Source: a virus. From it: 64,000 nucleotides of DNA. Made by a program: the position numbers and the translations under genes. The notes under the pieces are model-generated. The model was not told the DNA's origin, searched no databases, and saw only the letters and a list, made by a program, of their open reading frames with translations. Shown here piece after piece: positions 1 through 56,800 of this stretch. The DNA is taken from positions 3,189 through 67,188 of IMG/VR virus record IMGVR_UViG_3300024520_000062. One strand, 5' to 3'. Position 1 is the stretch's first letter. Each line of letters opens with the position of its first letter.

Positions 1-1
1 G

Positions 2-706: not shown

Positions 707-713
707 ATGGTCG

Positions 714-9775: not shown

Positions 9776-9792
9776 TGTTTGGACGAACTGAC

Positions 9793-39243: not shown

Positions 39244-39508
39244 AACTTCTTCTCTTCTACGGGGGCGCTGGCGCCGTGGGTTACCTCGTCGGTGGCCCGT
39301 GGTGGAAGTCGATACTAGCCGGGGCTCTCTGGGCCGTCATGTTTCTGGCGGCGGAGGCCCTCTTCTCCAAACCCAAGGCCAAGATCGTGGTGATGCACGG
39401 CACCGACATCGAGCCGGGCGACACCATCTGTATCCGCGACCGGGAGTACACGGTGCTCGCCTCCGAGGGCGACATCATCACCATCGACAGGCCGCTTGAA
39501 CCTGAGGC

Positions 39509-39558
39509 TTGACAGAATATGTACCTTTGATTAGGTTGCTTGGTAGATGGTTACTGGC
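39509..39558 (+). promoter_or_regulatory. Cassette promoter + leader motif
   Basis: TTGACA-17-TAGGTT, then GGTTACTGGC at 39549. Confidence 0.8.
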
Positions 39559-40919: not shown

Positions 40920-41096
40920 ATGGGTGAGGTCGCTAACGATATGCTCGATGGCCTGATGTGTTCGTGGTGCGGTACGTACTTCGAGAAGGCCCATGGCTTC
41001 CCCGTCCTGTGTGTGGCGTGCGACGACACACGCCGGGCCGACGTCCCCGAGTTATCGCCCGAGGTACAGCGGGCGACCGTGAGGGAGATCCGATGA
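40920..41096 (+). CDS. Small Zn-finger protein
   Basis: MGEVANDMLDGLMCSWC...LCVAC. Confidence 0.6.
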   Translation: MGEVANDMLDGLMCSWCGTYFEKAHGFPVLCVACDDTRRADVPELSPEVQRATVREIR

Positions 41097-41666
41097 TCCG
41101 AGTCAAACTAGTGCCTGAAACGAAGGTGGGTGGTGGAGACTTCGAGGGCGAGACTCCCGCTGTCTTCCGGCCGGCGCACACAATCATCACGGTGGACGCC
41201 GCCGGGCACGCCGATTTCGTCGCCATCCTGCGCGAGGCTCGGTACGGTACGATGCGGAAGCGAGTCGGCAAGCAGACATTCGACGCCGAGGCGATCACCG
41301 AGTTAAAGAGAGTTGAGGAGGCGAGCGCGTCCATCATGGGGTTGCTGGCTTCCCTCGCCCTGACTGACGAGGAAGAGGGGACGGCATCATGACAGCATGG
41401 CGCGTGACGTACTATCATGCAAACGGGAGGCACATGGGGCCCGATACCGACATGTTTTACACGGACAAGGAACGGGCGTTCAAGTGCGGCCTGATCTGCA
41501 CCAAGGACGTCGAAGGCACTACCTTCAAGGTGGACGAGATCTCGATCGCGAGTTAAAGACCTAAGCCAAGTCTCTAAACTGGCCACTCGAGGGGCGCCGG
41601 AGTCGGGCGTTCATCCATAAAATTCGACCTGTGCTGGGCATCACATCCTCTGCCCACTTTCCCCTC

Positions 41667-41782
41667 TTGACAGAATATGTGCCATTGATTACCTTGTGCC
41701 TAGCGTGAGGGGCGGGCCTTTGATTGGACTGCAAAGCCTTGACGGGGTTCGTCACTCATCGCACTGATGGTTACTGACTTAC
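41667..41782 (+). promoter_or_regulatory. Cassette promoter, structured leader and GGTTACTGAC motif
   Basis: TTGACA-17-TACCTT; hairpin 41705-41759; motif at 41769. Confidence 0.8.
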
Positions 41783-41801
41783 TTAACAGCAAGGGGGCAC
41801 G

Positions 41802-42305
41802 ATGTTTTCACTCGAGCAGGTACACGGCAACGGCGCGATCGTCCTGAAGGTGGAGCCGGGCACGATCCTCCGGCTGGCCGACGGGATGCGGTTGCGGCGC
41901 GGCACCAGCGGCTATCAGGTCACCTCAAACGGTGACGGCAAAGCCGTGATCTTCGCACTGGCTGGCGTCATCTGCACCGGACCACATCCTGACGCGAACA
42001 AGGCGTTCATCAGGGTAGAGTACAAGCAGCAGGTGATTGACCTCGACGGGACCGTCAGTGAGATCGTCCCCGACCACAACCGCAACGTGAAAGTGGCCCC
42101 GGTGAGACAGTTCGTCCGGTACGGCGAGGACACGACGCCTGCGGTGATGTTGTTCGACTACAGCGACATCGGTATGCCGAATCAGTGGAAGGTGTCACCA
42201 CACGGACCCGACCGGCCGGACGAGGACATGGATTGGTATGACAGCGAGGAAGAGGCGCAGGGCGCGGCGAATTTCTACGTCGCACAGATGGGAGGTACGT
42301 CGTGA
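41802..42305 (+). CDS. Hypothetical protein
   Basis: AAGGGGG RBS after the cassette motif. Confidence 0.65.
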   Translation: MFSLEQVHGNGAIVLKVEPGTILRLADGMRLRRGTSGYQVTSNGDGKAVIFALAGVICTGPHPDANKAFIRVEYKQQVIDLDGTVSEIVPDHNRNVKVAPVRQFVRYGEDTTPAVMLFDYSDIGMPNQWKVSPHGPDRPDEDMDWYDSEEEAQGAANFYVAQMGGTS

Positions 42306-42658
42306 CCGAGATCACCACTGGCCAGCTGGAGCAGCAAACTGTCCAGCACTATGGCAAGAACGAGAATGTCACTCAGCACATCGGGTTCCGTGTCCATTCG
42401 GACCACACGGTGTCATTCAGCGCCGTCGAATCGATCAAGCCATACGGCGAAGAGAGAGAGACTAAGCGTGTCAACACGTTTGCCGAGGTCAACGGGATGG
42501 AGGCACACTATGCTGTGGAGTTCGCGACTAAACTCCTCAAGGCTGCGATCATTGCCGAGGCCAAGGCGGACGAGGCCCGTAAGAACAAGGGCTGGGAGGA
42601 CACGATCACGGAAACGTCCGAGGTCGCTCGCTACGGCCGGGCGCACAAAACGAGTTAA
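42302..42658 (+). CDS. Hypothetical protein
   Basis: GGAGG RBS; GTGA overlap. Confidence 0.6.
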   Translation: MTEITTGQLEQQTVQHYGKNENVTQHIGFRVHSDHTVSFSAVESIKPYGEERETKRVNTFAEVNGMEAHYAVEFATKLLKAAIIAEAKADEARKNKGWEDTITETSEVARYGRAHKTS

Positions 42659-42679
42659 AGGTTCGAGTCAAAGTCCTGA

Positions 42680-42750
42680 GAGGTTGGGGGGCCAGAGCAA
42701 GCGCACTGGGAATGGGTGGGTTCGATTCCCCCCTCTGGTTCCTCAACTTC
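42680..42750 (+). ncRNA. tRNA-like mini-RNA 1 (18-bp stem + T arm)
   Basis: GAGGTTGGGGGGCCAGAG pairs with CTCTGGTTCCTCAACTTC; T arm GTGGG-TTCGATT-CCCCC (one mismatch). Confidence 0.6.
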
Positions 42751-42757
42751 TCCTCCC

Positions 42758-42806
42758 GGGCCGGTACACGCGACTGGGAAGGCGGGTTCGATTCCCGTCC
42801 GGTCCA
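42758..42806 (+). ncRNA. tRNA-like mini-RNA 2 (acceptor + T arm, no anticodon arm)
   Basis: GGGCCGG/CCGGTCC-A acceptor with G3.U70; GCGGG-TTCGATT-CCCGT T arm. Confidence 0.7.
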
Positions 42807-42823
42807 CTCGAGGAAATTGGGGG

Positions 42824-42878
42824 TTGCGCTGGTATGCACCATTGATTACCTTGTGTGTAGCAACGGTTACTGACTCAA
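42824..42878 (+). promoter_or_regulatory. Cassette promoter + leader motif
   Basis: TTGCGC-17-TACCTT; GGTTACTGACTCA at 42865. Confidence 0.75.
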
Positions 42879-42895
42879 CACTCGAGGGGGACACG

Positions 42896-43114
42896 ATGGC
42901 ACTGGTACAATTGGACTACGAACGGTTGCAGGCCGAGGACGTCAGGGGCGTTACGGTGAACACGCTGAATCACCTCTGGAGAAGTTGTCACAATCGGATC
43001 TTCCATGTCAGCGGAACCTCCGAATCGATTCGACAGGCAAGGCAGGACATCGACGTGGTCAACGCCGAGTTCAGCCGGCGGTACGCAGCAGGGATGAGCA
43101 CCGTAGTAGTGTAA
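42896..43114 (+). CDS. Hypothetical protein
   Basis: GAGGGGG RBS after the cassette motif. Confidence 0.6.
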   Translation: MALVQLDYERLQAEDVRGVTVNTLNHLWRSCHNRIFHVSGTSESIRQARQDIDVVNAEFSRRYAAGMSTVVV

Positions 43115-43121
43115 GTAAGGA

Positions 43122-43192
43122 GGGGGCGAAGGTGACTGACCGCGCGACTGAGTAGTCCTCGCCCGGTGTGGGTTCGATTCCCACCGCTTCCA
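43122..43192 (+). ncRNA. tRNA-like mini-RNA 3 (resembles the tmRNA tRNA-like domain)
   Basis: GGGGGCG/CGCTTCC-A acceptor with G3.U70; stemless D-like loop; capped helix; GTGGG-TTCGATT-CCCAC T arm. Confidence 0.7.
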
Positions 43193-43322
43193 TTAGCAGC
43201 AGGTGGTTCATTGTTGGTGGCTAGGGGACTTTCCATCAGGGCTCCCATACGGGAGATTCCGGTGCCTCGTAGACTGAGAAAGCAGTCGTGTCACCAGCAG
43301 TCAACCACCTCCAAAATTGGCC

Positions 43323-43376
43323 CTTGACAAGATATGCACTATTGATTAGGTTGGTTGCAGATGGTTACTGACTCAC
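43323..43376 (+). promoter_or_regulatory. Cassette promoter + leader motif (54-bp direct repeat, copy 1)
   Basis: CTTGACAAGATATGCACTATTGATTAGGTTGGTTGCAGATGGTTACTGACTCAC, identical to 44110-44163. Confidence 0.9.
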
Positions 43377-43395
43377 TGTAGCAAAGGGGAACACA

Positions 43396-43635
43396 ATGAA
43401 GATCAAGATCCACTGGCTGTTCACGGGCGAGCCCGGTGATGCGACAGAGGGCGGTTACTGGGAGAGCATGGAAGGTCGCTTCACGATTTCACCGAATTTC
43501 CGTAGCACGGTGTACCCCGATTCGTATTCGGTACGGGACAACCTGAAGGATCAGGATTATCGGTATCAGGACACGGTGCGGGAGTGCAAGGAATGGGCAA
43601 CCAGTTTGATCGAGCGGGAACAGCAGGGCAGGTAG
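43396..43635 (+). CDS. Hypothetical protein
   Basis: Cassette motif + AAGGGG RBS. Confidence 0.65.
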   Translation: MKIKIHWLFTGEPGDATEGGYWESMEGRFTISPNFRSTVYPDSYSVRDNLKDQDYRYQDTVRECKEWATSLIEREQQGR

Positions 43636-43673
43636 ACGAAGGTTACTGACTCACTGTGGCAAAGGGGAACAAA

Positions 43674-43874
43674 GTGGACAAGCTAGACGAACTCAGGGCC
43701 GAAGTGCTGCGGACGAAAGCCATTTACCGGGCAGCGAAAGCGCGCCACGCCGAAGCCTTCAGCCTCGGCCAAGGCAAGCTGGCGGCGAGGGCTGCACTGA
43801 GTGTCGCGACTAGGAATTGCAACAACGCCATCACGGCGAGAGATGAGTACAAACGGTCACTCGAAGGTTACTGA
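43674..43874 (+). CDS. Hypothetical protein
   Basis: Motif at 43641 + AAGGGG RBS; GTG start. Confidence 0.55.
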   Translation: MDKLDELRAEVLRTKAIYRAAKARHAEAFSLGQGKLAARAALSVATRNCNNAITARDEYKRSLEGY

Positions 43875-43900
43875 CTCACCACAGCGAAGGGGAACACGAC

Positions 43901-44101
43901 ATGCCGATCCACCTCACCGCCTTCATCAACGAGGCCAAGACCTTCGACAGCATCGACGCCGTCCAAGGCTATCGCATCCGGCACCGCATCAGCTACGCCT
44001 TCGATGCCGCACTAGGGACCGACGACCTGTACCGCCTGTTCCGCCCGGCGACCAACCCGGTAGACAATTACCCCGGTCACTACATCGTCAAAGGTGGCTG
44101 A
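43901..44101 (+). CDS. Hypothetical protein
   Basis: Motif at 43866 + AAGGGG RBS. Confidence 0.6.
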   Translation: MPIHLTAFINEAKTFDSIDAVQGYRIRHRISYAFDAALGTDDLYRLFRPATNPVDNYPGHYIVKGG

Positions 44102-44109
44102 AGAGAACA

Positions 44110-44163
44110 CTTGACAAGATATGCACTATTGATTAGGTTGGTTGCAGATGGTTACTGACTCAC
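44110..44163 (+). promoter_or_regulatory. Cassette promoter + leader motif (54-bp direct repeat, copy 2)
   Basis: Identical to 43323-43376. Confidence 0.9.
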
Positions 44164-44184
44164 AACAAAGTAAAGGGGGCAAGA

Positions 44185-44388
44185 ATGGTACTGATGGAGA
44201 TCGTGGTGCGGCTCGAGGTTCCCTCTGGGCTGATCACCGATGAGCAGGCCAACGAGGCCGATGACGCGCTCACTGAACTCAACCTGAGTGATGTGGTGTA
44301 TCAGACGGTGCGGTCGGCGGTGAACACACGACGTGGCCTCGAGAACGTGCTGGTCAACGTGTCCAGCGTGGACGAGGGGGGCTTCTAA
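44185..44388 (+). CDS. Hypothetical protein
   Basis: Cassette + AAGGGGG RBS. Confidence 0.6.
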   Translation: MVLMEIVVRLEVPSGLITDEQANEADDALTELNLSDVVYQTVRSAVNTRRGLENVLVNVSSVDEGGF

Positions 44389-44801
44389 TGAGCGTACTCC
44401 AACTTGGCCTCAGCGATCAGGCGTGGGCCGTGGCGCACTTGGTCGTCCCTCGCATCGAGGAAGCGATGACGGAGTGGGACGAGCCGGGTCTGGCGATCAC
44501 GGAGTTCCTAATCCGGCCGTGGTCTAACGGCAGGGAGAAGGGGCTGACCTTCATGCGGCGCCGGCCCGGCTACACTCAGGCACTGGCGGTGTTCCAGCAT
44601 CGGATCAGCGACAGCATCATCGTTTGGGAATTCAAACTGCCGAGCCACTTCTGGGAGGACGTGGTGCGGCCGGAAGATCTCGAGGAAGGCGTGGCGGACC
44701 AGCAGTACCGCAACCCGGCCCTCGAGGCAACGTGGGGCAACATCGGACAAGCGGCGGAGTACATCATGCGGACGCTGGCGCCGGGAGAGATCTATATCTG
44801 A
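44388..44801 (+). CDS. Hypothetical protein
   Basis: TAATG coupling; GAGGGG RBS. Confidence 0.6.
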   Translation: MSVLQLGLSDQAWAVAHLVVPRIEEAMTEWDEPGLAITEFLIRPWSNGREKGLTFMRRRPGYTQALAVFQHRISDSIIVWEFKLPSHFWEDVVRPEDLEEGVADQQYRNPALEATWGNIGQAAEYIMRTLAPGEIYI

Positions 44802-44805
44802 GGGG

Positions 44806-44860
44806 TTGACAGGATATCAACCATTGATTACCTTGTATCCAGCAACGGTTACTGACTTAC
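44806..44860 (+). promoter_or_regulatory. Cassette promoter + leader motif
   Basis: TTGACA-17-TACCTT; GGTTACTGACTTAC at 44847. Confidence 0.85.
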
Positions 44861-44880
44861 TACGAAGCAAGGGGGACACA

Positions 44881-45351
44881 ATGGGCATGGCACAACAGAT
44901 ACGGCTCGAGGCGGAGATGGACATCATCGAGGCACTGACCCCGCCGGCCGACTGGGACAACCAGAGCGAGACGGCCTTCAACAAGCAGGCCCGGTTCATG
45001 GGCGCCGTTGTCGGTCGCATGGCGACTAGGTCAGACGCTCGAGAACGGAAGAACGCGCTGGCGCGGTTGATGAAGCGGGGCGAGGTGGTGTCGTGGCGCA
45101 ACTACGGCAAGCGTAGTAACTACGCACTGGCCGAAGAGAACGCCCGCGCTCGTCAGGTGATCAGGCGGCGCGTCCGGCGAGAGTACGAAGAGTCGCGCGA
45201 TCAACAGGTCGAGGCGCTGGCACTGGCGACGAACCTCAACGATAGAGCGGGCGAGATCGTCAAGGCGCTCCATAAGGCCGGCTACGCCATCGTGCCGCGC
45301 GACAACATCCGGCACACGCAGTACTACCTCCCGAGGAGGGATGAGGCGTAA
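44881..45351 (+). CDS. Hypothetical basic protein
   Basis: AAGGGGG RBS; ATG at 44881. Confidence 0.65.
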   Translation: MGMAQQIRLEAEMDIIEALTPPADWDNQSETAFNKQARFMGAVVGRMATRSDARERKNALARLMKRGEVVSWRNYGKRSNYALAEENARARQVIRRRVRREYEESRDQQVEALALATNLNDRAGEIVKALHKAGYAIVPRDNIRHTQYYLPRRDEA

Positions 45352-45466
45352 GGCACACGACGGTCGGCCTGAGTCACCGATCGTCTCCCCCGGGGCCAGT
45401 GGCGGAACATGGCGCTGGTCCCAAGGCGCCTCAGCTGGGGCGCCAGACTCGAGCAGGATTGGAGGC

Positions 45467-45519
45467 TTGACAGGATATGTGTAGTTGATTAGGTTAGTCG
45501 TAGATGGTTACTGACTCAA
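45467..45519 (+). promoter_or_regulatory. Cassette promoter + leader motif
   Basis: TTGACA-17-TAGGTT; GGTTACTGACTCA at 45506. Confidence 0.85.
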
Positions 45520-45536
45520 CACTCGAGGGGGACAAA

Positions 45537-45758
45537 ATGAGATACTACATGACGGTCAACAACGACGCGATCGAAGTGTCCGACATCGACACCAACAAAG
45601 TGCTGGCGCGGATCACCACGGTCGAAGAGTACAACGCATTCATCGTCTTCCGCCGGCCGGACTACTTCATGTGCTCGAGTTCGCTCGACTTCCCCGAGGA
45701 CAGCACGAACGATCAAGACATCATCGCGCTGTGCCGGTCGCTGAGAGAGAGGGGTTGA
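45537..45758 (+). CDS. Hypothetical protein
   Basis: GAGGGGG RBS. Confidence 0.6.
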   Translation: MRYYMTVNNDAIEVSDIDTNKVLARITTVEEYNAFIVFRRPDYFMCSSSLDFPEDSTNDQDIIALCRSLRERG

Positions 45759-46793
45759 CCAATGAGATACGCTGAATGGACACGCCACAAGGCGCTGGCC
45801 CGAGGTTTCCCCAGTCATGAGGACGCGATCAAGTACGGCCGGGGGCTGGGTAACATCATCGGCCACAGCTGGCGCGTGGAGCCACGGCGCAACGTGGACG
45901 TCCAGACCGGCATCGGCCGGCAGACGTTCATCATTCATAACTACGGCACGCCGGTGTCGCTGTACCTCGAGTGCGTCACCACCGAGCCGGCCGAGGTCGA
46001 GCCCGACGAGCCCGAGTGGGCCGACGTCGAGGCCGACCAGCTGGCGCCGGGGGACTGATGACCACGCAAACCAAGCCGGCACGCGACAAGACTCGAGTGT
46101 ACCTCGAGTACTGGGGCAAGCAGATGCGCGCCGGCGTGCGGTGGTGGAGCATCACGGTAGAGTGGTGGGGCGAGAATCACCACACGGGCCCGCAGTGGTG
46201 CGGCCAGTGCTTCTGTGTGACGAGTGAAGAGATCGCCCGGCGGTGGCCGGACGCGATCGAAACGTGGGAGGCTTGATGGCAGCGGATCAAGTGGCGATCA
46301 CCTGTCCCGACTGCGCGACGAGCTACGCCATCGAGCGGTGGATATACGACAACATCACGTCCGTCTACTGCCCGACCTGTGGCAGGGACATCCTGCTGCC
46401 ACTGGGCAAGCGGATCGAGGAATCGAGGAAGTCTGATGGCTGATCGAGAAATGACCGAGGCGGAGTTCGAGGCACTGAAACGCAAGTGCTTCAATCTGGG
46501 GATGCAGGTCGGCGAGAGTGAGGGCCTACTGCAGGCGAGCATGATTGTCAGTGAGGTGCTGACTGAGCAGGTCGGCGGGCTGGGCGGCGGACGCCTCGCC
46601 ACTGAGGTGGCCCGCCGGATACAGGAGCGGAGTCAGGCGGTGCAGACGCTGACGATGCTCTGAGGATCGCGTGTAACGAACGATCGCGCGATCGCGCGAC
46701 TCGATGGTTGCCGGCGTTGTTCGTGTCGAGTTAAAGGCGACCTCGAGTTAAAGGCGAGTTAAACCCATCCGAGTTAAACCCGAGTCAAAGTCC

Positions 46794-47043
46794 TGTGGCG
46801 TTCCCACCACACTTTTATGTTGCGCCGACGCCACGGCAAAACGCGAGGGTGTCGCGCCGCCGCCACGGTATTTTGCGAAGTTGTTGCGTGAGCACCACAT
46901 ATGGCGTCGATGCAACATTGTCGCATTCTGCCGTGGCGCTCGAGCCACACTTTCGCATTTCGCCGTGGGATCGACGCCACACCGATGTTGCGTCGGCGCT
47001 ACGTTGCGTCTCCGCCACATAGCCCTGTGGTTTCGACGCTACA
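46794..47043. repeat. Array of ten 18-bp pseudo-palindromes (consensus YGTKGCG-N4-CGCCACA)
   Basis: Copies start at 46794, 46818, 46850, 46882, 46900, 46932, 46964, 46986, 47002 and 47026. Confidence 0.85.
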
Positions 47044-47070
47044 TGTGGTGCCGGCGCGGCACTTTCCCTG

Positions 47071-47167
47071 CACAAGATTCGTGCCACATCTATGGCACAT
47101 ACCTTGCAATAGCCAGAGCAAGTTCTATGCCATAGTTAAGATATGCATAGTTGGCACGCCTCTTGCT
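47071..47167. promoter_or_regulatory. Cluster of four sigma54 (-24/-12)-type sites in alternating orientation
   Basis: (-)TGGCACGAATCTTGTG 47071-86; (+)TGGCACATACCTTGCA 47093-108; (-)TGGCATAGAACTTGCT 47117-32; (+)TGGCACGCCTCTTGCT 47152-67. Consensus is TGGCAC-N5-TTGC. Confidence 0.75.
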
Positions 47168-47441
47168 TCGCGCGTTCATTATATACAGCAGGCGCCAGCC
47201 GGCGCCAGCAGGCGCCAGCCGGAAACCGCCTAGGCAATGGCTTTGCGGCTGGTATACCCCTAGAACGCCCGAGGTTGCCGTCTAACGGATGTTTATGTCC
47301 TACCCATACTAGTACACCAACCTCCTGCCGTTCGGACAAGTCGTTACAGGGCAATGACTTACAAGGCCGTATTTTCGGGACATAGTATATTTGTGACCCA
47401 TAACCCGAAATAGCCTATACCTAGGCCTTGAAACTCAGGTA

Positions 47442-47470
47442 TTGCGTTATCAGCCATGGATAGTTAACTT
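47442..47470 (+). promoter_or_regulatory. Sigma70-type promoter upstream of the ArdC island
   Basis: TTGCGT-17-TAACTT. Confidence 0.5.
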
Positions 47471-47650
47471 ATTCCCTCACAGAATAGGCCCGGTCCCATG
47501 GTGGTGAAACACCGACAGCCGCGCCGCTTGAAACGCCCCCCGACTCTCCGCCTCACTCGAGGCAATGTTTCATCCTTCGTTCATTATATGCCGGCGCCGC
47601 TTGCCGGCTGTGCCCTAGCGTTAGCCGCTAAGGCGAAAGGCTACTGACCT

Positions 47651-47914
47651 ATGACTGACTACGACAGCAACGGCGCTCCCGAGTATTGCTACCCTGACGG
47701 TACCGGCGCGCCGCTCGATTACTTCGGCCAGCGAAACGACTTCACGCTGATGCCGGCAGAACGGGACCACCCATGCTACGCGCTGACGGTTGGACCGCGC
47801 GGTACCATAGAAACAATGGATTGGGAAACGCGCGGCACTGGCTCGCAAGCAATGCTTTCTCTTATCGGCTCCCTGATGCGCAACGGCACTATCCCAAACG
47901 GCTGGGACTTCTAA
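47651..47914 (+). CDS. Hypothetical protein
   Basis: AAGGCTACTGAC variant motif just before the ATG. Confidence 0.55.
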   Translation: MTDYDSNGAPEYCYPDGTGAPLDYFGQRNDFTLMPAERDHPCYALTVGPRGTIETMDWETRGTGSQAMLSLIGSLMRNGTIPNGWDF

Positions 47915-47940
47915 ACTCACTACACTCGAGGGCGCCTATC

Positions 47941-48825
47941 ATGGCTACTGTTTACGAGATCATCACCGACAGAATTATTGCAGCAATCGAGACTGACGGC
48001 ACGCTACCATGGCACAAGCCATGGCGCGCCGGCACAGCGGCGCCGGCCAACTTGAAAAGCGGCAAGGCGTACCGAGGGATAAACGTCTTCCTGCTGGGAA
48101 TGCTTGGCTACTCCTCGCCTTACTTCGTTTCCTACAAGCAAGCGAAGACGTTAGGCGGTCAGGTTCGGAAAGGCGAGAAAGGTTCGCCCGTTGTCTTCTG
48201 GCTGTGGCCCGATGAAAAGAAAAAGGCCGCAGCAGCCGCAAAGGGAAAGCAGGCCTTCCCCATTATGCGCTACTACACAGTGTTCAATGTCAGCCAGTGC
48301 GACGGCATAAGCCACAAGCGGCTGACGGAATGGCAAGCGGCTGAAGATGCTGCAGCCGGTCAGACCCATGATGCCATCGAATCAGCAGCCGCAATAGCAG
48401 CCGGCTGGGAAGACGGCTGCAAAGTAGAACATGGCAAGAGTCAGGCGTATTACTCGCCATCGGCTGACGCTATCGGAATGCCGAACCTTGACGCATTCGA
48501 AACGGCGCCGGCGTACTATTGCACGCTCTTCCATGAGATGGTACACGCTACCGGCCACAGCAGCCGGCTTGACAGGTTCCCAGCCGACAGCGGCGCACAG
48601 CCGTTCGGGTCGGAATCATATTCGCAGGAAGAATTGACTGCAGAGATGGGCGCCAGTTTCCTAGCAGCAGAAGGCGGCTTGCCGCTTGATAGCTTCATCG
48701 ATCAGTCAGCCGCCTACGTAGCCAACTGGCTGCAACGGTTGAAAGGCGACAGCAAGTTGGTAGTAACAGCAGCGGCGCGCGCACAGAAGGCCGCTGATCT
48801 CGTACTGGGTCGCACGTTTGAATAA
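47941..48825 (+). CDS. ardC: ArdC-family antirestriction protein (DUF1738 + zincin-like domain)
   Basis: YEIITDRII, PWHKPW, YRGIN, GGQVRKGEKG, YYTVFN, TLFHEMVHATGH, EELTAEMGA, SAAYVANWL. Confidence 0.92.
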   Translation: MATVYEIITDRIIAAIETDGTLPWHKPWRAGTAAPANLKSGKAYRGINVFLLGMLGYSSPYFVSYKQAKTLGGQVRKGEKGSPVVFWLWPDEKKKAAAAAKGKQAFPIMRYYTVFNVSQCDGISHKRLTEWQAAEDAAAGQTHDAIESAAAIAAGWEDGCKVEHGKSQAYYSPSADAIGMPNLDAFETAPAYYCTLFHEMVHATGHSSRLDRFPADSGAQPFGSESYSQEELTAEMGASFLAAEGGLPLDSFIDQSAAYVANWLQRLKGDSKLVVTAAARAQKAADLVLGRTFE

Positions 48826-49244
48826 TCTTCACCATGGGCGCGCCGGCAACGGCGCGCCGGGAGTTCCTACCGTGTCTGTTCCTGTCTTCGCGCTGTTCAT
48901 TGTTCTACTGGTATGTTTTGCCGCTTGCGTTATCGCCTTAGCTATTCGCGACTGACTCACTCAAGAAAACGGCGCGCCATGATGCGCGCCGGAAAGGTTA
49001 CTTGACTCATGTTTTCAATCGCCCTGACTCTCGCTGCTGCTGCTTTCTTCCACATGCTTCGGACTGTCATCGTGCTGGCTGATGACCGGCGCATCGCGCG
49101 AGCCGCGCGCCCTGCTGGCCGTTGCCTGACTCGCGCCGTCCGTCCCGCTGGCAGGATTAGCCGGCGCGCCGTTTCTAGCCTGACCGGTACCTTTCATACG
49201 GTCGAGCCGTTCAAGCCATTCGCACGACCGCTGCAGTCGTTCTA

Positions 49245-49946
49245 ATGTCAAACGACAACAGCGTGATTGCATACGAGGGCGTCAGCCGGATTAACGGCGC
49301 GCCCATTGTCGTCATCATATCCGGCATACTCGAGCCATCGAGCAACGGCAAAACTGGCGACATGCTACAGGCGTATATCCTACGGTCCGATATACCGCCC
49401 CTCGAGGCGCTCGAGACTGGGAAAGATTCCGCCATTTGTGGTGGCTGTCCCTTTCGCAAGGCGCTGCGTGGTGGTTGTTATGTGAACGTAGGACAGGCGC
49501 CGCGCGGCATTTGGGAATGCTACAAGAACGGCGCCGGCTACGAGTATTGCACTGACCCGGCTTCTCTCTTCCGGCGTACTGATCGCATCAGGCTAGGCGC
49601 CTACGGTGACCCGGTAGCGGCGCCGCTCGAGATGTGGCAATCTCTCGTCAGTCATTCCGCTGGCTGGACTGGGTACACACATCAGTGGCGCGCGAAGATG
49701 GCGCGCGGCTTCTCTTCCATCCTGCAGGCATCGTGTGACAGTATAGCCGATCAGGAAGAGGCAACCGCGCGCGGCTGGGGAACCTTTCGAGTCTCCGCCT
49801 TAGGCGATCGCGACACAGTGCCCGGGGAATTCTACTGCCCAGCGCCGGCCATCGATTGCCGGGATTGCCTCCGTTGCGACGGCGCCAGCGGCGCGGCCGT
49901 ACTGATAGAGGCACATGGCAGCGGCGCCGGCAAGGTGGCGCCATGA
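49245..49946 (+). CDS. Cys-rich putative Fe-S protein (DUF7227-like, radical-SAM-related phage family)
   Basis: SSNGKTG, ICGGCP..CY, IRLGAYGDP, WTGYTHQW, ASCDS, CPA..CRDCLRC, EAHG. Confidence 0.65.
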   Translation: MSNDNSVIAYEGVSRINGAPIVVIISGILEPSSNGKTGDMLQAYILRSDIPPLEALETGKDSAICGGCPFRKALRGGCYVNVGQAPRGIWECYKNGAGYEYCTDPASLFRRTDRIRLGAYGDPVAAPLEMWQSLVSHSAGWTGYTHQWRAKMARGFSSILQASCDSIADQEEATARGWGTFRVSALGDRDTVPGEFYCPAPAIDCRDCLRCDGASGAAVLIEAHGSGAGKVAP

Positions 49947-50276
49947 CTCCCTACTATAGCCGCTGGCTCGGCATCCCTTACCCCGCTGCGCGACACATAG
50001 AACGGCGCGCGGCCCACACCACCACTACGGCGCCGGTGGAGGACCGGCGCCCAATACGCCCCCGTAACGCGCGACCCGCGCGCCGGGTCACAATCCTACC
50101 GGCGCCGCCACTACCGGCGCCGTGTGGCCAGCAAGGCGTCGAGCGGCGCGGGCTCGACCGACTGGCTATGTACTATGGGCCTTGATTAGTCGCGCGAGAT
50201 GCGGCGCCGGAATGGACCCGGCGCCGCCCGTGCGTCTCCACCTTTTTCGCGGCGCCGCTCGAGGACCGGCGCCGTC

Positions 50277-50314
50277 TGGCACGCCCCTTGCATGCTACAG
50301 CAAGGGGCGTGCCA
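50277..50314. promoter_or_regulatory. Inverted pair of sigma54-type sites
   Basis: TGGCACGCCCCTTGC-ATGCTACA-GCAAGGGGCGTGCCA: perfect 15-bp inverted repeat whose arms match the -24/-12 consensus. Confidence 0.75.
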
Positions 50315-50559
50315 CAGGCTCGAGATTGGACAAAGTCCAATCCCAGCATTTTTTTTGCGCGGAGCGGGGGGCCCAGCTGGGCGCAAAAATAGTGGAATTC
50401 TTGGATTGGGGGTTGCGAAAAATTTGAGTTTTTATGAGTCTTATGTATCTGGGATGACTCTCTCTTCTCTTCTTCTATTGGATATGTATAGTATATAAGG
50501 GTAGTGAGTAAGTTGTCTTTCCTTATATAGAGCGAAAAAGTTGCACCCCTAGATCATTT

Positions 50560-50736
50560 AGGGCAGCGCCTAGTTGCGAACCGGGTTGAGGCAAGGAATG
50601 TGCACCCCGTGGAAACCGCCCGGCCAGCAACGAAGAGGTGTGAGGGAAGGGCTGAGATAGCATACCTTACACGGAGGCGATTCGGCGGGATGGATGCCAG
50701 AAGTAGATCCCCTCGCCGGACGTAGTGCTGGCCCAC
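50560..50736 (+). ncRNA. Unassigned multi-stem structured RNA
   Basis: Nested pairs CGCCT/AGGCG, GTTGC/GCAAC, CCGGG/CCCGG, GTGTGAGG/CCTTACAC, CGGCG/CGCCG; no + strand ORF. Confidence 0.45.
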
Positions 50737-52625
50737 TTGGAGGGCTCGGTTGGAGTGCCGGGTTACCGTGTACGACCAGCTAGGGAACGGGGAACAGCCG
50801 TGGATATGACCCGAGGGCGGTGGCGTGTGGACGAGAAGAAGACGGAGGAGGTGGCACTGGCGACCGATCAGCCCCGAGCGTGGGAGGGGGCGGATGGGAG
50901 TTGCTTCAAGGGTGTGCCACGGACGGTGATGTCGTGGGACGAACGGTTACTGATGAACCTGTGGGCGATAGCGGAGGAGTTTGACGATGATGACGACTAA
51001 GCAGTTGGCTGAGATCGAACTACGAACGAACTCGGCCAAGCCGGGCCCATCGTCAAGCCGACTCAGAGACACGAGATCACGAGTCGGTACGGCCCGGAGA
51101 TAGGAGACGGATGATGTCAGAGGAGTTCGTAAGAATCGGAATGCACGGCACATGGTATCCCGAACACGGGACGCTGTACGTGGAAGGTGGCAAGGTGTCC
51201 TTGCCTCGAACGAAGCACCGGGACGCTGCCGTGTCTTTGGTGAAGCAGTACGAGGATAACGGGTTGCTACCTTGCTGTGACTGTGGGATCGTGATGACGA
51301 AGACGGATGTGGCCGGGAGTCGATTCGCAGGACGGTACTGCCCGATCTGTTGGGCGAAGTACCAGAAGGCGAACAGTCAGAAGTGCCTGATTTGCTCGGC
51401 CCCGAGATGGCGTTGTTGCTGCTGAACAGGAGGAAAGCCGATGTGGAGCAGAGGAGACGTAGCATACGTGACGCTGCCGGATGGAACGGTGTGCGAGGGA
51501 GTGATCTCCTGCATCTCCGACGCCCACCTGCCACAGGACAGGGTGACACGATGATGCCGGACTTCACATCGATGCCGCTGGGAGCCGTCACCGTGACGAA
51601 GCCGATGAGGCAAGCGATCCTGAGTCACTCAGATTTCGAGTGGGCGGTCAGGTCGCTGGCGCTCAGACTGACAACGTGGCTCCCGCCGCACAACGCGGGG
51701 CCGGAGTGGGTCACTCCCCCGAGGAAGATGGGGCAGAACCAATGACAACAATCCACGATGAGCTTTTCGGGTTGAATTTCTGCCCGGCGTGTGGCAAAGA
51801 GGCGAAGAAGGCGGTGGCGCACTGTGTGTCATGTGGCGTGGACTTCAGTTCGGTCCTGCGGGTGCTGGACGACTCGACGCCGGACCCGGTTGAGACAGGG
51901 ATACTGCGACTGCGGGAAGCGGAATACAAAATGTTGGAGGAGCGAGTGGAGACACTGGAAACGCGAATGCTGGGGCTACTAGCGAAACTTATCGAAATGG
52001 GAGTGGACATCCGATGAGTCAGAACGCGAAGGTGTTTCTTGGGTTGATGGCTATCGGGCTCCCGTTGTTGCTCATGGTGTTCTTCATGTTCTGGATAGAG
52101 TGGCGTCGATGGGAAGGTGGGACGCGGAGAAATCCGATGACCGATAAACCACGTCCGCCAAGGGTCGAATGCCCCGACTGCCATCTGAAATATGCCAACG
52201 ACAAAGTGTTGGCTATGCACCGGGAGCATTGTGACGGGCTTGACCGATCACTGAGAGAGTCCGCGGTGATCATCCCGCTCGGTGAGGAGGCCCACGTTCC
52301 GCTGTCGGTTGCTCGCAAGGCGCTGGAACGCGAACGACGGCTCGACTGCGAGGCGATGTGCGTGTTCTGCGCCGATGGCGACGTGCCGGAGCGGCATAAG
52401 CGCGGCTTCTGGATACACGGTGGGTACAGCATGGTCTGTCGCGCCAGCCCTATCCGTGAGAGGAAGACCGGATGACCGCCGCCACAGACAGGACTCTCCG
52501 CACCGCCTATGTGCGCTACGACCGCCTGACAGCGTGGGGCTGTACCCAGCGTGGGCGCCCGTTCGATGCGGGCCAGATGAACATGGCGTGGGAGATCTAC
52601 CAGTGGGAACTCGAGGAGGCGGGGT

Positions 52626-53216
52626 ATGGACGGATCGCCTGACAAGGACATCGGCAAGGCGATGGAGATCCGCACGGGCGCCGGCCGGCCGCGCAAGCTG
52701 ACGGAAGAGAAACTGGAAGAGGTCGTCGCCAAGGTACTGGAGGGGAACTTCGTCGCCACCGCCGCGCGGGCGTGTGGGATCAGCGAAGGCGGATTCCACC
52801 ACTGGATGAAGTTGGGCCGCGAAGTGTACGCGCGTCTCGAGAACTACGAGATAAACCGCCAACCACTGGTGGAGAGCGAGGTCATCTACATGGACTTCGC
52901 CGTGGGTGTGGAGACAGCACGGGCGATGGCCGAGACGGACATGGTCAACAAGGTCACGACGTCGGCGATCGAGGACTGGCGGGCGGCGGCGTGGTGGCTC
53001 GAGCGGGTCCACGCCGGCCGGTTCGCCCGGCAACAGCGACTCGAGACGACGGTCAAGGGTGACCCGGACAACCCGATACAGGTCGAGGTCAGCGCCAAGG
53101 ATACATTGGTCGAGCGGCTGACGGCGATAGCGGAGCGCCGGACGGCGGGCGAGGCACTGATGCCCCCGCGAGAGGACGATGTGACGATCGAGGATGCGGA
53201 GATAGTCGATGAGTGA
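52626..53216 (+). CDS. terS: Terminase small subunit
   Basis: GRPRKLT, HTH (ATAARACGISEGGFHHW), DWRAAAWWLER, C-terminal DNPIQVEV. Confidence 0.75.
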   Translation: MDGSPDKDIGKAMEIRTGAGRPRKLTEEKLEEVVAKVLEGNFVATAARACGISEGGFHHWMKLGREVYARLENYEINRQPLVESEVIYMDFAVGVETARAMAETDMVNKVTTSAIEDWRAAAWWLERVHAGRFARQQRLETTVKGDPDNPIQVEVSAKDTLVERLTAIAERRTAGEALMPPREDDVTIEDAEIVDE

Positions 53217-55224: not shown

Positions 55225-55299
55225 AGGGACGTAGCGCAGACAGGTCAGCGCACCTGCTTTGGGAGCAGGGGGCCGTGGGTTCGAATCCCACCGTCCCTA
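55225..55299 (+). tRNA. tRNA-Pro(TGG)
   Basis: AGGGACG/CGTCCCT acceptor; CCTGC-TTTGGGA-GCAGG; GTGGG-TTCGAAT-CCCAC. Confidence 0.88.
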
Positions 55300-55303
55300 T
55301 GAA

Positions 55304-55387
55304 GGCCAGACCACGGTAGGGTCAGCGACGGCTGATTGCCCGTTCGACTCGGGCAGGGGAACGTGGGTTCGAATCCCACTCTGGCTG
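55304..55387 (+). ncRNA. tRNA-like RNA with two T-loops and no anticodon
   Basis: GGCCAGA/TCTGGCT stem; GTCAGC-GACG-GCTGAT; TGCCCG-TTCGACT-CGGGCA; GTGGG-TTCGAAT-CCCAC. Confidence 0.6.
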
Positions 55388-55956
55388 TATGAGTAAACTG
55401 GAAGAGTTGCGGGCTAAAGGAATCGTCTTTGACGACGACGATCTCGACGGTTTCTGGGTCAACATGAACGACACGTTCGGCTGGGCCTGCGCGGACGGCG
55501 AAGAGATCACAGAAGCAGAGGTAGATGAAGTACATGCCGTCTACTTCGGTGCCCCAGAGGGAACGGGGTGGCATGCAGTGACGCGGTGGGTGTGTGCCCG
55601 GCGCGGATACGAGCCATTCGATCTCTGGAAAGAGCGATTCGGATGGCCGGAACCCAAAGGAAAGGATGGTGTGCCATGACAAAGTGACCCCAACTAGGAG
55701 TCAGTCATGGCAGGCGAGAAGGCAAAGGGTAGCAAGAAGAACCGGAAGCACGGTCGTGGTGCCCGAAACGGTGTTCGTGCGCGGTACTGGTCGAGTCATC
55801 GACTGGAAAAGCGCAAGGTTAGGAATCTGATGCGGTGTTGTGGAATGACCCGTGCCGCTGCGGAGGCGCACTGGCGCGAGGTCCGAGTGAAGCGCATCAA
55901 GTAAAGGTTCCACCCCACTGTCGAAAAACCCATGGGGTTTCAGGTGGGGTGGTCAT

Positions 55957-56023
55957 CGCAGGGCCAGCGGTGGCACGGTGGGCCCATAACCCATCAAGCC
56001 GGGTTCGATTCCCGGCCCTGCTA
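55957..56023 (+). tRNA. Initiator-type tRNA-Met(CAT) with reduced D arm
   Basis: C1:U72 mismatch; GGG/CCC in the anticodon stem; loop CCCATAA; normal T arm; 67 nt. Confidence 0.7.
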
Positions 56024-56030
56024 TGTAAGC

Positions 56031-56123
56031 GGTGTCTGTGGTCGTAATTGGTAACGATCCCGCCCCAGACGAATGAATGTCGATAGATGGCGGTCATGCG
56101 GGTTCGAATCCCGTCAGGCACCC
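56031..56123 (+). tRNA. tRNA-like gene with a 24-nt expanded anticodon loop (identity undetermined)
   Basis: GGTGTCTG/CAGGCACC; D arm GTCG..CGAT; CCGCC/GGCGG closing CCAGACGAATGAATGTCGATAGAT; GCGGG-TTCGAAT-CCCGT. Confidence 0.65.
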
Positions 56124-56125
56124 AC

Positions 56126-56199
56126 GCTCCGGTGGCGAAATTGGCAAACGCGCCAGATTTAGGATCTGGAGACTCAGGGTTCGAATCCCTGCTGGAGCA
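56126..56199 (+). tRNA. tRNA-Leu(TAG), short variable loop
   Basis: GCTCCGG/CTGGAGC; CCAGA-TTTAGGA-TCTGG; CAGGG-TTCGAAT-CCCTG. Confidence 0.85.
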
Positions 56200-56200
56200 T

Positions 56201-56287
56201 GGCAGTGTGGCGGAGCGGCGAACGCGGCTGACTGTAGATCAGCTACCCGAGCGGTGAACACCTCAGGTTCGAGTCCTGACGCTGCCA
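56201..56287 (+). tRNA. tRNA-Tyr(GTA)
   Basis: GGCAGTG/CGCTGCC; GCTGA-CTGTAGA-TCAGC; long variable arm. Confidence 0.88.
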
Positions 56288-56289
56288 TC

Positions 56290-56364
56290 GCGTCCGTGGC
56301 GGAATTGGTATACGTGACCGCACTCAAAATGCGGAGGTTGCTGGTTCGAATCCAGCCGGGCGCA
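56290..56364 (+). tRNA. tRNA-Leu(CAA), short variable loop
   Basis: GCGTCCG/CGGGCGC; CCGCA-CTCAAAA-TGCGG; GCTGG-TTCGAAT-CCAGC. Confidence 0.85.
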
Positions 56365-56800
56365 CTTATGAACGATCAAGAACGTGAGACGGTGTTGGCC
56401 TACGAGCAGGGCAGGAAAGATGGGCACCAAGAAGCGAAGAAGCCGGACGGGTGGGCGACCTACGCCTTGAGTCGAGGGTACGTGGGTCCACGGAAGGCGC
56501 AGGAGATGCGAGCCAAGGCGGTGATGAAATTCGCTAAACTGCTGGATGAACTATTTGAGGGTTCTGGTTTGTACGCGAGTATCGCCAAGGATTGGTTGAA
56601 TGGTGTTCCACTAGATGGAGAGAAACGATGAGAAAGCTACTGCATCGATGGTTCGGTTGGCACCAATGGGACGGCTGCCATTTTCGGGCGGAGGGTAGCG
56701 GACGAACGAGCTACCATCGAGGAACGAAGTGCCGCCACTGCGGGATCGTTCGAGATGCTGTGGGCCAGACGATCCCAGAGTGGCGGATCACACACCAGAC

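What the first reader, a model, noticed from the sequence alone, without database searches (positions are those of the whole stretch)
47071..50314. Six sigma54-type sites and an IHF-like dyad bracket the ArdC island
Seen: four TGGCAY-N5-TTG(C/T) sites in alternating orientation within 100 bp (47071-47167) and a perfect inverted pair at 50277-50314. A dyad AAGTCGTT-N7-AATGACTT lies at 47338-47360, and CGTTCATTATAT is repeated at 47173 and 47577. Established: UAS + IHF + -24/-12 is sigma54 promoter architecture, and sigma54 holoenzyme forms stable closed complexes without an activator. Inference: convergent, tightly packed sites are unlikely all to be productive promoters. They may recruit RNAP-sigma54/IHF as a roadblock protecting a genome end or first-injected DNA, or may sponge sigma54.
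Basis: partly seen in the sequence, partly recalled or inferred. Interest (0 to 1): 0.78.

Follow-up and report, generated by a model that had tools for sequence, protein, structure and literature searches.

The report
Sigma-54 binding-site clusters around ArdC
Two tight clusters of near-perfect binding sites for the bacterial sigma-54 RNA polymerase flank an anti-restriction gene block in a marine phage, and larger arrays of the same sites recur in many unrelated phages, which points to an undescribed way for phages to engage this host factor.

Summary
The six sigma-54-type sites are real and far beyond chance. TGGCAY-N5-TTGY occurs 7 times in the window against 0.46 expected, and six copies lie in two non-coding gaps (47072-47166; 50277-50314) that flank a compositionally odd ArdC gene block. 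The "IHF-like dyad" is an ordinary short inverted repeat, and no IHF consensus is present.

The element is not peculiar to this phage. A convergent-pair pattern finds 83 viral loci, against 0 for the reversed control and 36, mostly perfect hairpins, in a far larger bacterial collection. Many viral hits are arrays of 4-13 sites in mixed orientation. In six further array-bearing phage records checked whole, nearly all sites of the genome sit in one array.

Conservation falls on the -24/-12 blocks, not on hairpin potential, and positions I did not specify fit the sigma-54 consensus. No phage-encoded activator, sigma-54 DNA-binding domain or shared candidate binder was found. Site direction relative to flanking genes is about 50:50.

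Best reading (about 0.45): a docking or titration array for host sigma-54 RNA polymerase, selected for binding rather than direction, placed beside early anti-defence genes. Ordinary sigma-54 promoters are the main rival (0.30). A T5-like vibriophage carries the same sites next to DnaA boxes in its terminal repeat. I found no description of such arrays in print.

The parts
46728..46789 (+). Five direct copies of GAGTYAAA. This strand-specific motif has 13 copies in the genome, all on the + strand between 37314 and 46782.
46794..47050 (.). Iteron-like field: 11 copies of CGCCACR-type boxes on both strands, partly at 32-bp spacing. Density is 27.5 per kb against 4.9 per kb in the window.
47072..47086 (-). 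Sigma-54-type site 1, TGGCACGAATCTTGT. It is the weakest site (TTGT at -12). It overlaps the window's only TGCAC-N7-GTGCA-like dyad (47069-47085, 1 mismatch).
47093..47107 (+). Sigma-54-type site 2, TGGCACATACCTTGC followed by A. It faces the ArdC block.
47118..47132 (-). Sigma-54-type site 3, TGGCATAGAACTTGC followed by T. It is convergent with site 2, with 10 nt between the -12 boxes.
47152..47166 (+). Sigma-54-type site 4, TGGCACGCCTCTTGC followed by T. It is identical at 14 of 15 positions to sites 5 and 6. The inferred start lies near 47178, about 470 nt before the first ORF of the block.
   Evidence: the -24/-12 spacing rule is recalled
47173..47184 (+). First copy of the 12-mer CGTTCATTATAT. 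The second copy is at 47578-47589. The two copies bracket the non-coding leader.
47167..47650 (+). Non-coding, lower-GC leader with no codon signal. Its RNA fold is not significant (z = -1.9). Only a weak Rfam match was found (P11, E = 0.39).
47338..47360 (.). It is present but not distinctive and not IHF-like.
47651..47914 (+). ORF of 87 aa, first gene of the block, with no family match.
47941..48825 (+). ArdC anti-restriction protein (ArdcN plus zincin-like MPTase-PolyVal domains; phrog_7245).
49009..49245 (+). ORF of 78 aa with no family match.
49245..49946 (+). Phage-specific protein of 233 aa (phrog_2554). A homologue (38.6% identity) lies about 1.7 kb from the array of phage G001. Only the Atlas links it to GP88/DUF7227.
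49943..50185 (+). Last ORF of the block. Its ATG overlaps the preceding stop (ATGA). The ORF list starts it at 49856 from a TTG.
50277..50314 (.). Sites 5 (+) and 6 (-), both TGGCACGCCCCTTGC, forming a perfect 15-bp inverted repeat with an 8-nt loop. No T-run follows on either strand.
50315..50724 (+). Second non-coding leader. It is AT-rich (GC 0.48 in 50350-50649) and has no codon signal.

Best explanation
The six sites are genuine binding sites for the host's sigma-54 (RpoN) RNA polymerase. They are a small example of a recurrent phage element: an array of near-consensus -24/-12 boxes packed into the main non-coding region, beside early or accessory (anti-defence) genes and usually upstream of the terminase operon.

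What appears to be selected is binding, not the direction of transcription. I infer that the array holds sigma-54, free or as holoenzyme, in silent closed complexes on the phage DNA. It would then act as a docking or titration device, in some phages together with DnaA boxes. In a T5-like vibriophage the same sites sit on the DNA that T5-type phages inject first.

In this phage the three right-facing sites (47093, 47152, 50277) could additionally fire as activator-dependent promoters with leaders of about 420-550 nt. The three left-facing sites have no gene to serve.

Shown: the motif, its enrichment, its recurrence, the pattern of conservation, and the absence of a phage-encoded binder or activator. 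Inferred: that sigma-54 binds, and what the binding achieves.
For: 1. Local enrichment. The window holds 7 sites against 0.46 expected. All 4 exact sites of the genome lie in the two clusters.

2. Recurrence. The convergent-pair pattern finds 83 loci in viral contigs, 0 with the reversed pattern, and 36 in the bacterial genome collection of 596 billion bases.

3. Not hairpins. Among 70 distinct viral pairs the 5-nt spacers are complementary at 0-2 positions in 63, and none is fully complementary. Among 37 bacterial pairs, 20 are perfect hairpins, some from Actinobacteria.

4. Arrays. About 42 loci form one GC-0.46 family with 4-12 sites per array and a 47-bp unit, which is not a multiple of three. 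Of the 41 other loci, 24 have at least 3 sites within 400 bp.

5. Concentration in one place. Sites inside the array, out of all sites in the record: G001 8 of 9, G002 13 of 13, G003 13 of 14, G004 10 of 10, G010 7 of 7, G011 7 of 7 (a record rated 48% complete). The reversed control gives 0-1 per record.

6. Constraint on the boxes. In 15 distinct arrays of the GC-0.46 family, 79 of 90 box columns are invariant, against 21 of 45 spacer columns and 21 of 114 linker columns.

7. Unspecified positions fit the sigma-54 consensus. In 161 distinct sites from the other lineages, G follows TGGCAC in 78% and A or T follows TTGC in 79%.

8. Conserved position. The G001-G003 clade keeps an array at the same syntenic place although TerL identity falls to 38-39%.

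9. No phage-encoded partner. PF00158 gives 0 of 6 genomes. PF04552 gives 0 of 5; it was not run on G006. No protein family is shared by all six array-bearing genomes; the widest families reach four.

10. Direction is not favoured. In seven lineages 30 sites point toward the terminase gene and 31 away (my tally).

11. Same kind of neighbours. ArdC homologues (36% identity) lie directly beside arrays in L016, L028 and L050, and a homologue of the 233-aa protein lies beside G001's array.

12. Vibrio phage VF16. All 6 exact sites are in the terminal repeats, next to DnaA boxes, in two inverted non-coding regions that bracket genes 006-011.
Against: - No binding or expression data exist. No RNA run holds the stretch.
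- The host is unknown, so the presence of rpoN is unverified.
- The search pattern was built from the sigma-54 motif, so arrays of other motifs would have been missed, and convergent pairs are over-represented by ascertainment.
- About half of the viral loci belong to one family.
- No benefit to a phage of titrating sigma-54 is known.
- A single infecting genome carries only six sites here.
- Sites 18-35 bp apart cannot all hold holoenzyme at once (footprint size recalled).
- The nearest complete relative by TerL (G007, 53% identity) has no site at all. Nor do YuA, Caulobacter phage RLK or the terminal-repeat region of T5. The element is therefore dispensable and patchy.
- The downstream pair in this window, unlike all 70 viral pairs, is a perfect hairpin. 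It may owe its form to RNA or DNA structure, or to a recent inverted duplication.
- Over all loci, DnaA boxes with up to 1 mismatch are only 1.6 times denser near arrays (35 in 106.8 kb against 139 in 667.5 kb). This window has none.
Confidence: 0.45

Rival explanations
1. The sites are ordinary, productive sigma-54-dependent promoters. The right-facing sites drive the ArdC block and the downstream block through long leaders. In phages with divergent modules, the array is a bidirectional promoter cluster for the early and the packaging operons. Host activators such as NtrC or PspF would switch them on; naming these activators is a recalled idea.
For: - Phage YuA has three experimentally active -24/-12 promoters that depend on host sigma-54. 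They are annotated in its record and cited in bioRxiv 10.1101/2023.10.13.562163 (passage read). YuA-like phages are among the nearest isolates by portal, at about 32% identity.
- Leaders from the right-facing sites (about 420-550 nt) fall mostly within the 360-760 nt range reported for many E. coli sigma-54 transcripts (PMC4591121).
- In the GC-0.46 family and in G001 the array lies between divergently read modules.
- Its place before an anti-restriction gene recalls the T7 early promoter cluster before gene 0.3 (recalled).
- One NtrC-like dyad lies about 100 bp upstream of the inferred start of site 4 (consensus recalled).
Against: - All genes of this phage are on the + strand, yet 3 of 6 sites face left.
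- Across lineages, direction is 30 toward the terminase gene and 31 away.
- Neighbouring sites overlap each other's inferred start regions. Convergent pairs most often lie 21-22 bp start to start (27 of 43).
- No activator is encoded.
- Early genes that depend on a conditional host activator would be risky for the phage.
- No other operon in these genomes has such a site.
Confidence: 0.3
2. The motif is read by another protein or process. It could be part of a replication origin, of a packaging (pac or cos) site, or of the operator set of an unrecognised phage protein. The likeness to sigma-54 sites would then be secondary.
For: - Arrays lie 0.4-2.7 kb upstream of TerL in several lineages: the GC-0.46 family, G001-G003, L008, L069 and L080.
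- Iteron-like repeats abut the cluster in this window.
- 22-bp DnaA-box iterons abut the array of G001.
- The only perfect DnaA boxes of G001 (3) and G006 (2) lie at or in the array.
- The protein next to the GC-0.46 arrays has an AT-hook motif (for its position, for the motif).
Against: - Unrelated phages, with GC from 0.33 to 0.65 and no shared candidate binder, keep exactly the same 6+4 boxes. Even unspecified positions fit sigma-54. Phage-specific binders normally have lineage-specific sites.
- In this phage TerL is 7 kb away from the nearer cluster.
- Cumulative GC skew shows no switch at the clusters, apart from the odd composition of the block itself.
Confidence: 0.15
3. The element has no function of its own. 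It is a chance resemblance, a hairpin terminator at 50277-50314, or a remnant of recombination at the borders of an acquired cassette.
For: - The downstream pair is a perfect 15-bp hairpin placed 92 nt after the last ORF of the block.
- The block has atypical composition: negative GC skew, weak GC3 signal, and a five-fold excess of GGCGCC.
- Sites 4, 5 and 6 are near-identical, as a duplication would leave them.
Against: - Enrichment is far beyond chance.
- No T-run follows the hairpin, and the terminator scan does not list it.
- The upstream cluster is not a hairpin.
- The boxes are conserved in other lineages.
Confidence: 0.05

Closest known systems
Sigma-54-dependent promoters of Pseudomonas phage YuA (Ceyssens et al. 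2008; seen here through the record's annotation, and a passage of bioRxiv 10.1101/2023.10.13.562163)
   Same: A siphovirus with all genes on one strand, distantly related by portal (about 32% identity). It uses host sigma-54 at -24/-12 elements.
   Different: YuA has three single, dispersed, right-facing promoters inside the structural region. It has no site within 1 mismatch of TGGCAC-N5-TTGC in its first 50 kb and no exact site in the whole record. It has no clusters, no mixed orientation and no near-consensus boxes.
Untranslated repeat regions of the first-step-transfer DNA of T5-like phages, proposed as the injection stop signal (Davison, bioRxiv 10.1101/866236; abstract and section 3.3 read)
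   Same: Non-coding fields of binding sites for a host protein (paired DnaA boxes), present as two inverted copies that bracket a few kb of pre-early genes on the first DNA to enter. The T5-like Vibrio phage VF16 carries sigma-54-type sites inside these regions. Some arrays elsewhere carry paired DnaA boxes.
   Different: T5 itself has no sigma-54-type site there. This window has no DnaA box. The six array-bearing genomes have no A1, A2 or dmp homologues. The ends of this phage are unknown. The function of the T5 region is itself only a hypothesis.
Orphan and intragenic sigma-54 binding sites of E. coli (Bonocora et al. 2015, PMC4591121; passages read)
   Same: Sigma-54 holoenzyme sits on many sites in a transcriptionally inactive state. 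Antisense and orphan orientations are common, and leaders are long.
   Different: The E. coli sites are single and scattered, often deviate from the consensus, and lie mostly inside genes. The phage sites are near-consensus, clustered and non-coding.
Decoy or titration arrays for DNA-binding regulators (the datA locus for DnaA is recalled; synthetic decoy arrays appeared in the listing, not read)
   Same: Many high-affinity sites packed into DNA that regulates nothing locally, with an effect through the free concentration of the factor.
   Different: No decoy for a sigma factor, and none carried by a phage, turned up in my searches. The effect here is untested.
Early promoter cluster A1-A3 before the anti-restriction gene 0.3 at the entering end of T7 (recalled, no call)
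   Same: A cluster of host-polymerase sites directly before an anti-restriction gene at the start of the early region.
   Different: The T7 promoters are sigma-70 type, all face one way, lie about 100 bp apart and need no activator.

Membership tests
Sigma-54 (-24/-12) promoter element | GG and GC doublets ten bases apart within TGGCAC-N5-TTGC | tested here: met
   Four exact sites and two single-mismatch sites in the two clusters.
Sigma-54 (-24/-12) promoter element | Flanking consensus (recalled): G after TGGCAC, and A or T after TTGC | tested here: met
   G follows in 4 of 6 sites and A in the other 2. A or T follows the -12 box in 5 of 6. In 161 sites of other lineages the figures are 78% G and 79% A or T.
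Sigma-54 (-24/-12) promoter element | Placed upstream of a gene and facing it | tested here: inconclusive
   Three of 6 sites face genes, across non-coding leaders of about 420-550 nt. Three face backwards in a genome whose genes are all on the + strand.
Sigma-54 (-24/-12) promoter element | An enhancer-binding activator (AAA+ domain, PF00158) with upstream binding sites | tested here: inconclusive
   The phage encodes none, nor do five other array-bearing phages. A host activator cannot be checked. One NtrC-like dyad lies at 47069-47085, and given site 1 it is only a 1-in-64 coincidence by my estimate.
Sigma-54 (-24/-12) promoter element | The host encodes rpoN, and transcription or binding depends on it | not testable with these tools
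   The host is unknown (seawater metagenomes). No RNA run holds the stretch.
IHF binding site | Asymmetric consensus WATCAANNNNTTR (recalled) | tested here: not met
   No match in 46663-47651 or in 50185-50725. The dyad at 47338 is one of 48 of equal quality in the window.
T5-type first-step-transfer repeat regions | Paired DnaA boxes in the non-coding repeats | tested here: not met
   The genome has no perfect DnaA box, and none with up to 1 mismatch lies within 600 bp of the cluster.
T5-type first-step-transfer repeat regions | Two inverted copies of the element bracketing a few kb of early genes | tested here: met
   Site 4 (+) and site 6 (-) are identical at 14 of 15 positions and lie 3.1 kb apart around the ArdC block.
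T5-type first-step-transfer repeat regions | A1, A2 and dmp pre-early genes | tested here: not met
   tblastn with the T5 and VF16 proteins gave no hit at E <= 0.01 in six genomes.
T5-type first-step-transfer repeat regions | Location in a terminal repeat or at the entering end | not testable with these tools
   Only assembled contigs are held, so no read ends are available. The ends of the contig overlap, as in a circular assembly.
Intrinsic terminator | GC-rich hairpin followed by a T-run | tested here: not met
   The 15-bp stem is present, but no T-run follows on either strand, and the scan does not list it.
ArdC anti-restriction protein | N-terminal ArdcN domain plus C-terminal zincin-like metallopeptidase domain | tested here: met
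   PF08401 at E = 1e-33 and PF18818 at E = 4e-35. phrog_7245 at E = 5e-78.

The most novel reading that the evidence does not exclude
Phages of several unrelated lineages carry a DNA-level device aimed at a host sigma factor. It is an array of consensus sigma-54 sites, in some phages interleaved with DnaA boxes, on the first-entering or early control region. The array would either soak up sigma-54, and so shut the host's sigma-54 regulon, or capture host proteins to anchor and time DNA entry and the expression of the first anti-defence genes. Neither action would need any phage protein.
Probability: 0.35. Interest if true: 0.85.

Novelty: new variant of a known kind. Interest (0 to 1): 0.72.

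Why it matters
Sigma-54 is the one bacterial sigma factor that parks polymerase on DNA without transcribing. If phages exploit this with dedicated arrays, that would be a new type of phage-host interface, encoded purely in non-coding DNA.

Such an interface would bear on three questions: how early anti-defence genes such as ardC are timed, what the long-unexplained repeat regions of T5-like first-step-transfer DNA do, and how the sigma-54 regulon (motility, nitrogen, envelope stress) fares during infection.

The arrays are easy to recognise, so they could serve as a marker for the control region in uncultured marine phage genomes. The hypothesis can be tested directly with gel shifts and with plasmid-borne arrays.

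Tried and rejected
**Close relatives.** The ArdC search in viral contigs found none. Nine TerL relatives at 47-53% identity carry no array. The complete relative G007 has no site. Conservation within the phage's own lineage therefore could not be tested.

**DNA similarity to GenBank phages.** No match for 46500-51000. No match for one GC-0.46 array. The G001 array query hit only through its DnaA boxes.

**RNA evidence.** No RNA holder is listed for the stretch.

**Reads.** All four runs laid are contigs, so they give no molecule ends and no starts. No form lacking the block was seen. One 11.9-kb contig bridges 44150-54000. A joint 49119 to 53109, with 7 letters between, in three runs was left unexplained.

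**Structured RNA in the leaders.** Rfam gave only two sub-threshold matches. The folds gave z = -1.9 and -1.0.

**Sigma-70 promoter scan.** One weak site against 1.9 expected.

**Family of the 233-aa protein.** The link to GP88/DUF7227 rests on the Atlas alone. BLASTP, hhalign (probability 1%) and Pfam at E <= 10 were all negative, so I do not claim it. A literature search on those family names found nothing relevant.

**Sites in other phages.** None in T5 1-12000, in YuA or in Caulobacter phage RLK.

**Host identification.** Not achieved.

**Literature.** Five searches and one follow-up paper (PMC3391216, passages) gave no description of sigma-54 site arrays in phages. Subscription journals are not covered.

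Full report
**What the window is.** The window is 64 kb of a 67,188-bp IMG/VR virus contig whose two ends overlap imperfectly, as in a circular assembly. It is a siphovirus with every recognisable gene on the + strand:
- tape measure at 1578;
- helicase at 27367, primase-helicase at 30281, RecE-like exonuclease at 34458;
- terminase large subunit at 57476, portal at 58859, major head protein at 62006.

Near-identical DNA is held by seawater metagenome runs. Six runs hold at least half of the sampled words, and one of them may be the source. The nearest isolates by portal, at about 32% identity, include YuA-like Pseudomonas phages and Xanthomonas and Stenotrophomonas siphoviruses.

**The observation.** TGGCAY-N5-TTGY occurs 7 times in the window, against 0.46 in shuffles. 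Six copies form two clusters:
- 47072(-), 47093(+), 47118(-) and 47152(+);
- 50277(+) and 50300(-).

All four exact TGGCAC-N5-TTGC matches of the whole contig lie in these clusters, against 0.2 in shuffles. Both clusters sit in stretches with no codon-position signal, roughly 46.6-47.65 kb and 50.2-50.8 kb.

Between the clusters lie ArdC, a phage-specific 233-aa protein (phrog_2554) and small ORFs. This block differs from the rest of the genome in three ways: negative GC skew, weak GC3 periodicity, and a five-fold excess of GGCGCC.

The dyad is ordinary and no IHF consensus is present, and the 12-mer repeat lies at 47173 and 47578.

Upstream of the first cluster lies a field of 11 CGCCACR boxes, preceded by five copies of a strand-specific GAGTYAAA motif.

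**The same element elsewhere.** I searched for a convergent pair, TGGCAC-N5-TTGC, 6-12 nt, GCAA-N5-GTGCCA.

| Collection | Loci matched |
|---|---|
| Viral contigs | 83 |
| Viral contigs, reversed pattern (control) | 0 |
| Bacterial genome collection (596 billion bases) | 36 |

The bacterial hits are mostly single perfect hairpins (20 of 37 distinct pairs), some from Actinobacteria. Only two small contigs there look array-like.

The viral hits differ. Among 70 distinct pairs, none has complementary spacers, so hairpin formation is not what is kept. Many of the hits are arrays:
- About 42 loci form one family with GC 0.46. Their arrays hold 4-12 sites built from a 47-bp unit.
- Of the other 41 loci, 24 have at least 3 sites within 400 bp.

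Where whole records were checked, almost every site of the genome lies in one array:

| Record | Sites in the array / sites in the record |
|---|---|
| G001 | 8 / 9 |
| G002 | 13 / 13 |
| G003 | 13 / 14 |
| G004 | 10 / 10 |
| G010 | 7 / 7 |
| G011 (rated 48% complete) | 7 / 7 |

**Evidence that the boxes are what is selected.**
- In an alignment of 15 distinct GC-0.46 arrays, 79 of 90 box columns never vary, against 21 of 45 spacer columns and 21 of 114 linker columns. My search pattern fixed only 20 of those box columns, and only in one pair per locus.
- Positions I never specified follow the sigma-54 consensus as I recall it. In 161 distinct sites from the other lineages, G follows TGGCAC in 78% and A or T follows TTGC in 79%.
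- G001, G002 and G003 keep an array at the same place, upstream of a gene of about 300 codons and TerL, although TerL identity falls to 38-39%.
- None of six array-bearing genomes encodes an activator AAA+ domain. None of the five tested encodes a sigma-54 DNA-binding domain.
- No protein family is common to all six genomes.

A conserved host protein with sigma-54's specificity is therefore the most economical reader of the motif.

**Genomic context.** In the GC-0.46 family and in G001 the array lies between divergently read modules.
- On one side are small genes followed by TerL and portal.
- On the other side are early or accessory genes.

The first genes on the accessory side vary:
- ArdC (36% identity to the ArdC of this window) in L016, L028 and L050;
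- a GP88/DUF7227 protein in 14 loci;
- in G001, a homologue of this window's 233-aa protein.

ArdC in general has no such neighbours. In 42 metagenome ArdC loci (180.5 kb) there is one site and no array. The link is therefore to the place in the phage genome, not to ardC.

Site direction shows no preference. In seven lineages 30 sites face the terminase gene and 31 face away (my tally).

**DnaA boxes and the T5 parallel.** Paired perfect DnaA boxes lie inside the arrays of nine GC-0.46 loci. Three perfect and two near-perfect boxes, arranged as 22-bp iterons, abut G001's array. These are the only perfect boxes in G001 and in G006. Over all loci the excess of DnaA boxes near arrays is weak, at 1.6-fold, and this window has none.

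A BLAST search with one array hit Vibrio phage VF16, a 121.8-kb phage with 7.4-kb terminal repeats and T5-type pre-early genes. All six exact sites of VF16's genome lie in the repeats. They sit next to DnaA boxes in two inverted non-coding regions that bracket genes 006-011. These regions share T5's palindrome D and its DnaA-box pairs.

Davison's preprint describes these T5 regions as conserved, untranslated and unexplained, and proposes that they form the injection stop signal. T5 itself has no sigma-54-type site there. The six array-bearing genomes have no A1, A2 or dmp homologue.

The layout in this window is similar. Near-identical sites in inverted orientation lie 3.1 kb apart around early anti-defence genes. 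That is a resemblance of layout, not membership of the T5 family of elements.

**Mechanism.**

*Shown:* a recurrent, conserved, non-coding array of sigma-54-type boxes, with no phage-encoded partner and no preferred direction.

*Inferred:* host sigma-54, free or as holoenzyme, binds the sites. Because the sites overlap each other's inferred start regions and face both ways, binding itself is the selected property. The array would then dock or titrate sigma-54, possibly on the first DNA to enter. I put this at 0.45.

*Main rival (0.30):* ordinary activator-dependent promoters. This is supported by the YuA precedent and by leader lengths close to those reported for E. coli.

*Less likely:*
- A transcriptional roadblock, which is weakened by the negative E. 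coli test in the same paper.
- An origin, a packaging site or another binder (0.15).
- No function of its own (0.05).

**Novelty.** Five literature searches and the papers I read show sigma-54-dependent promoters in a phage, but no arrays of this kind. Supplementary files and subscription journals were not visible to me. I rate the finding as a new variant of a known kind, with interest 0.72.

Noticed in passing
window 37314-46782: GAGTYAAA, usually as CGAGTTAAAG, occurs 13 times. All copies are on the + strand and none on the - strand, in the small-gene region, with five tandem copies at 46728-46782. It may be a phage-specific promoter or regulator site.
   Followed up: partly
window 46794-47050: Eleven CGCCACR boxes on both strands, partly at 32-bp spacing, lie directly upstream of the first sigma-54 cluster. 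They look like iterons or activator sites. They are not DnaA boxes.
   Followed up: partly
window 46663-50725: The palindromes GGCGCC (23 of the window's 67 copies) and GGCGCGCC (7 of 9) are concentrated in and around the ArdC block. The block also has negative GC skew and weak GC3 periodicity, which suggests foreign origin.
   Followed up: partly
window 47069-47085: The only TGCAC-N7-GTGCA-like dyad (NtrC-type, consensus recalled) in the window overlaps the weakest sigma-54-type site. It lies about 100 bp upstream of the inferred start of site 4.
   Followed up: partly
window 50277: In one seawater run (X8) a contig reads C instead of T at the first base of the perfect palindrome, at depth 5.8.
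   Followed up: no
window 49119 and 53109: Contigs of three runs join these two places with 7 other letters between them. This could be a deletion variant or an unrelated sequence sharing short GC-rich words.
   Followed up: no
window 21704-21779 and 55225-56365: Six tRNA genes. Five of them are clustered between the ArdC block and the terminase gene.
   Followed up: no
L172 (Vibrio phage VF16, record positions 4473-4700 and 6697-6967): Sigma-54-type sites lie beside DnaA boxes in both inverted non-coding regions of the terminal repeat. T5 lacks them at the homologous places.
   Followed up: yes
hits H47-H55: Tandem DnaA-box-like repeats lie close to the record ends of several unrelated phages: Shigella phage A7 at 78-136, and Arthrobacter phages Tiff81 and Seahorse within 100 bp of the right end.
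   Followed up: no
L174 8661-9542 (G001): The 293-aa gene between the array and TerL gives only a weak LAGLIDADG-like match (E = 7e-4, below the family cut-off). The 130-aa protein next to the GC-0.46 arrays has an AT-hook motif. Either could be a small terminase subunit.
   Followed up: no
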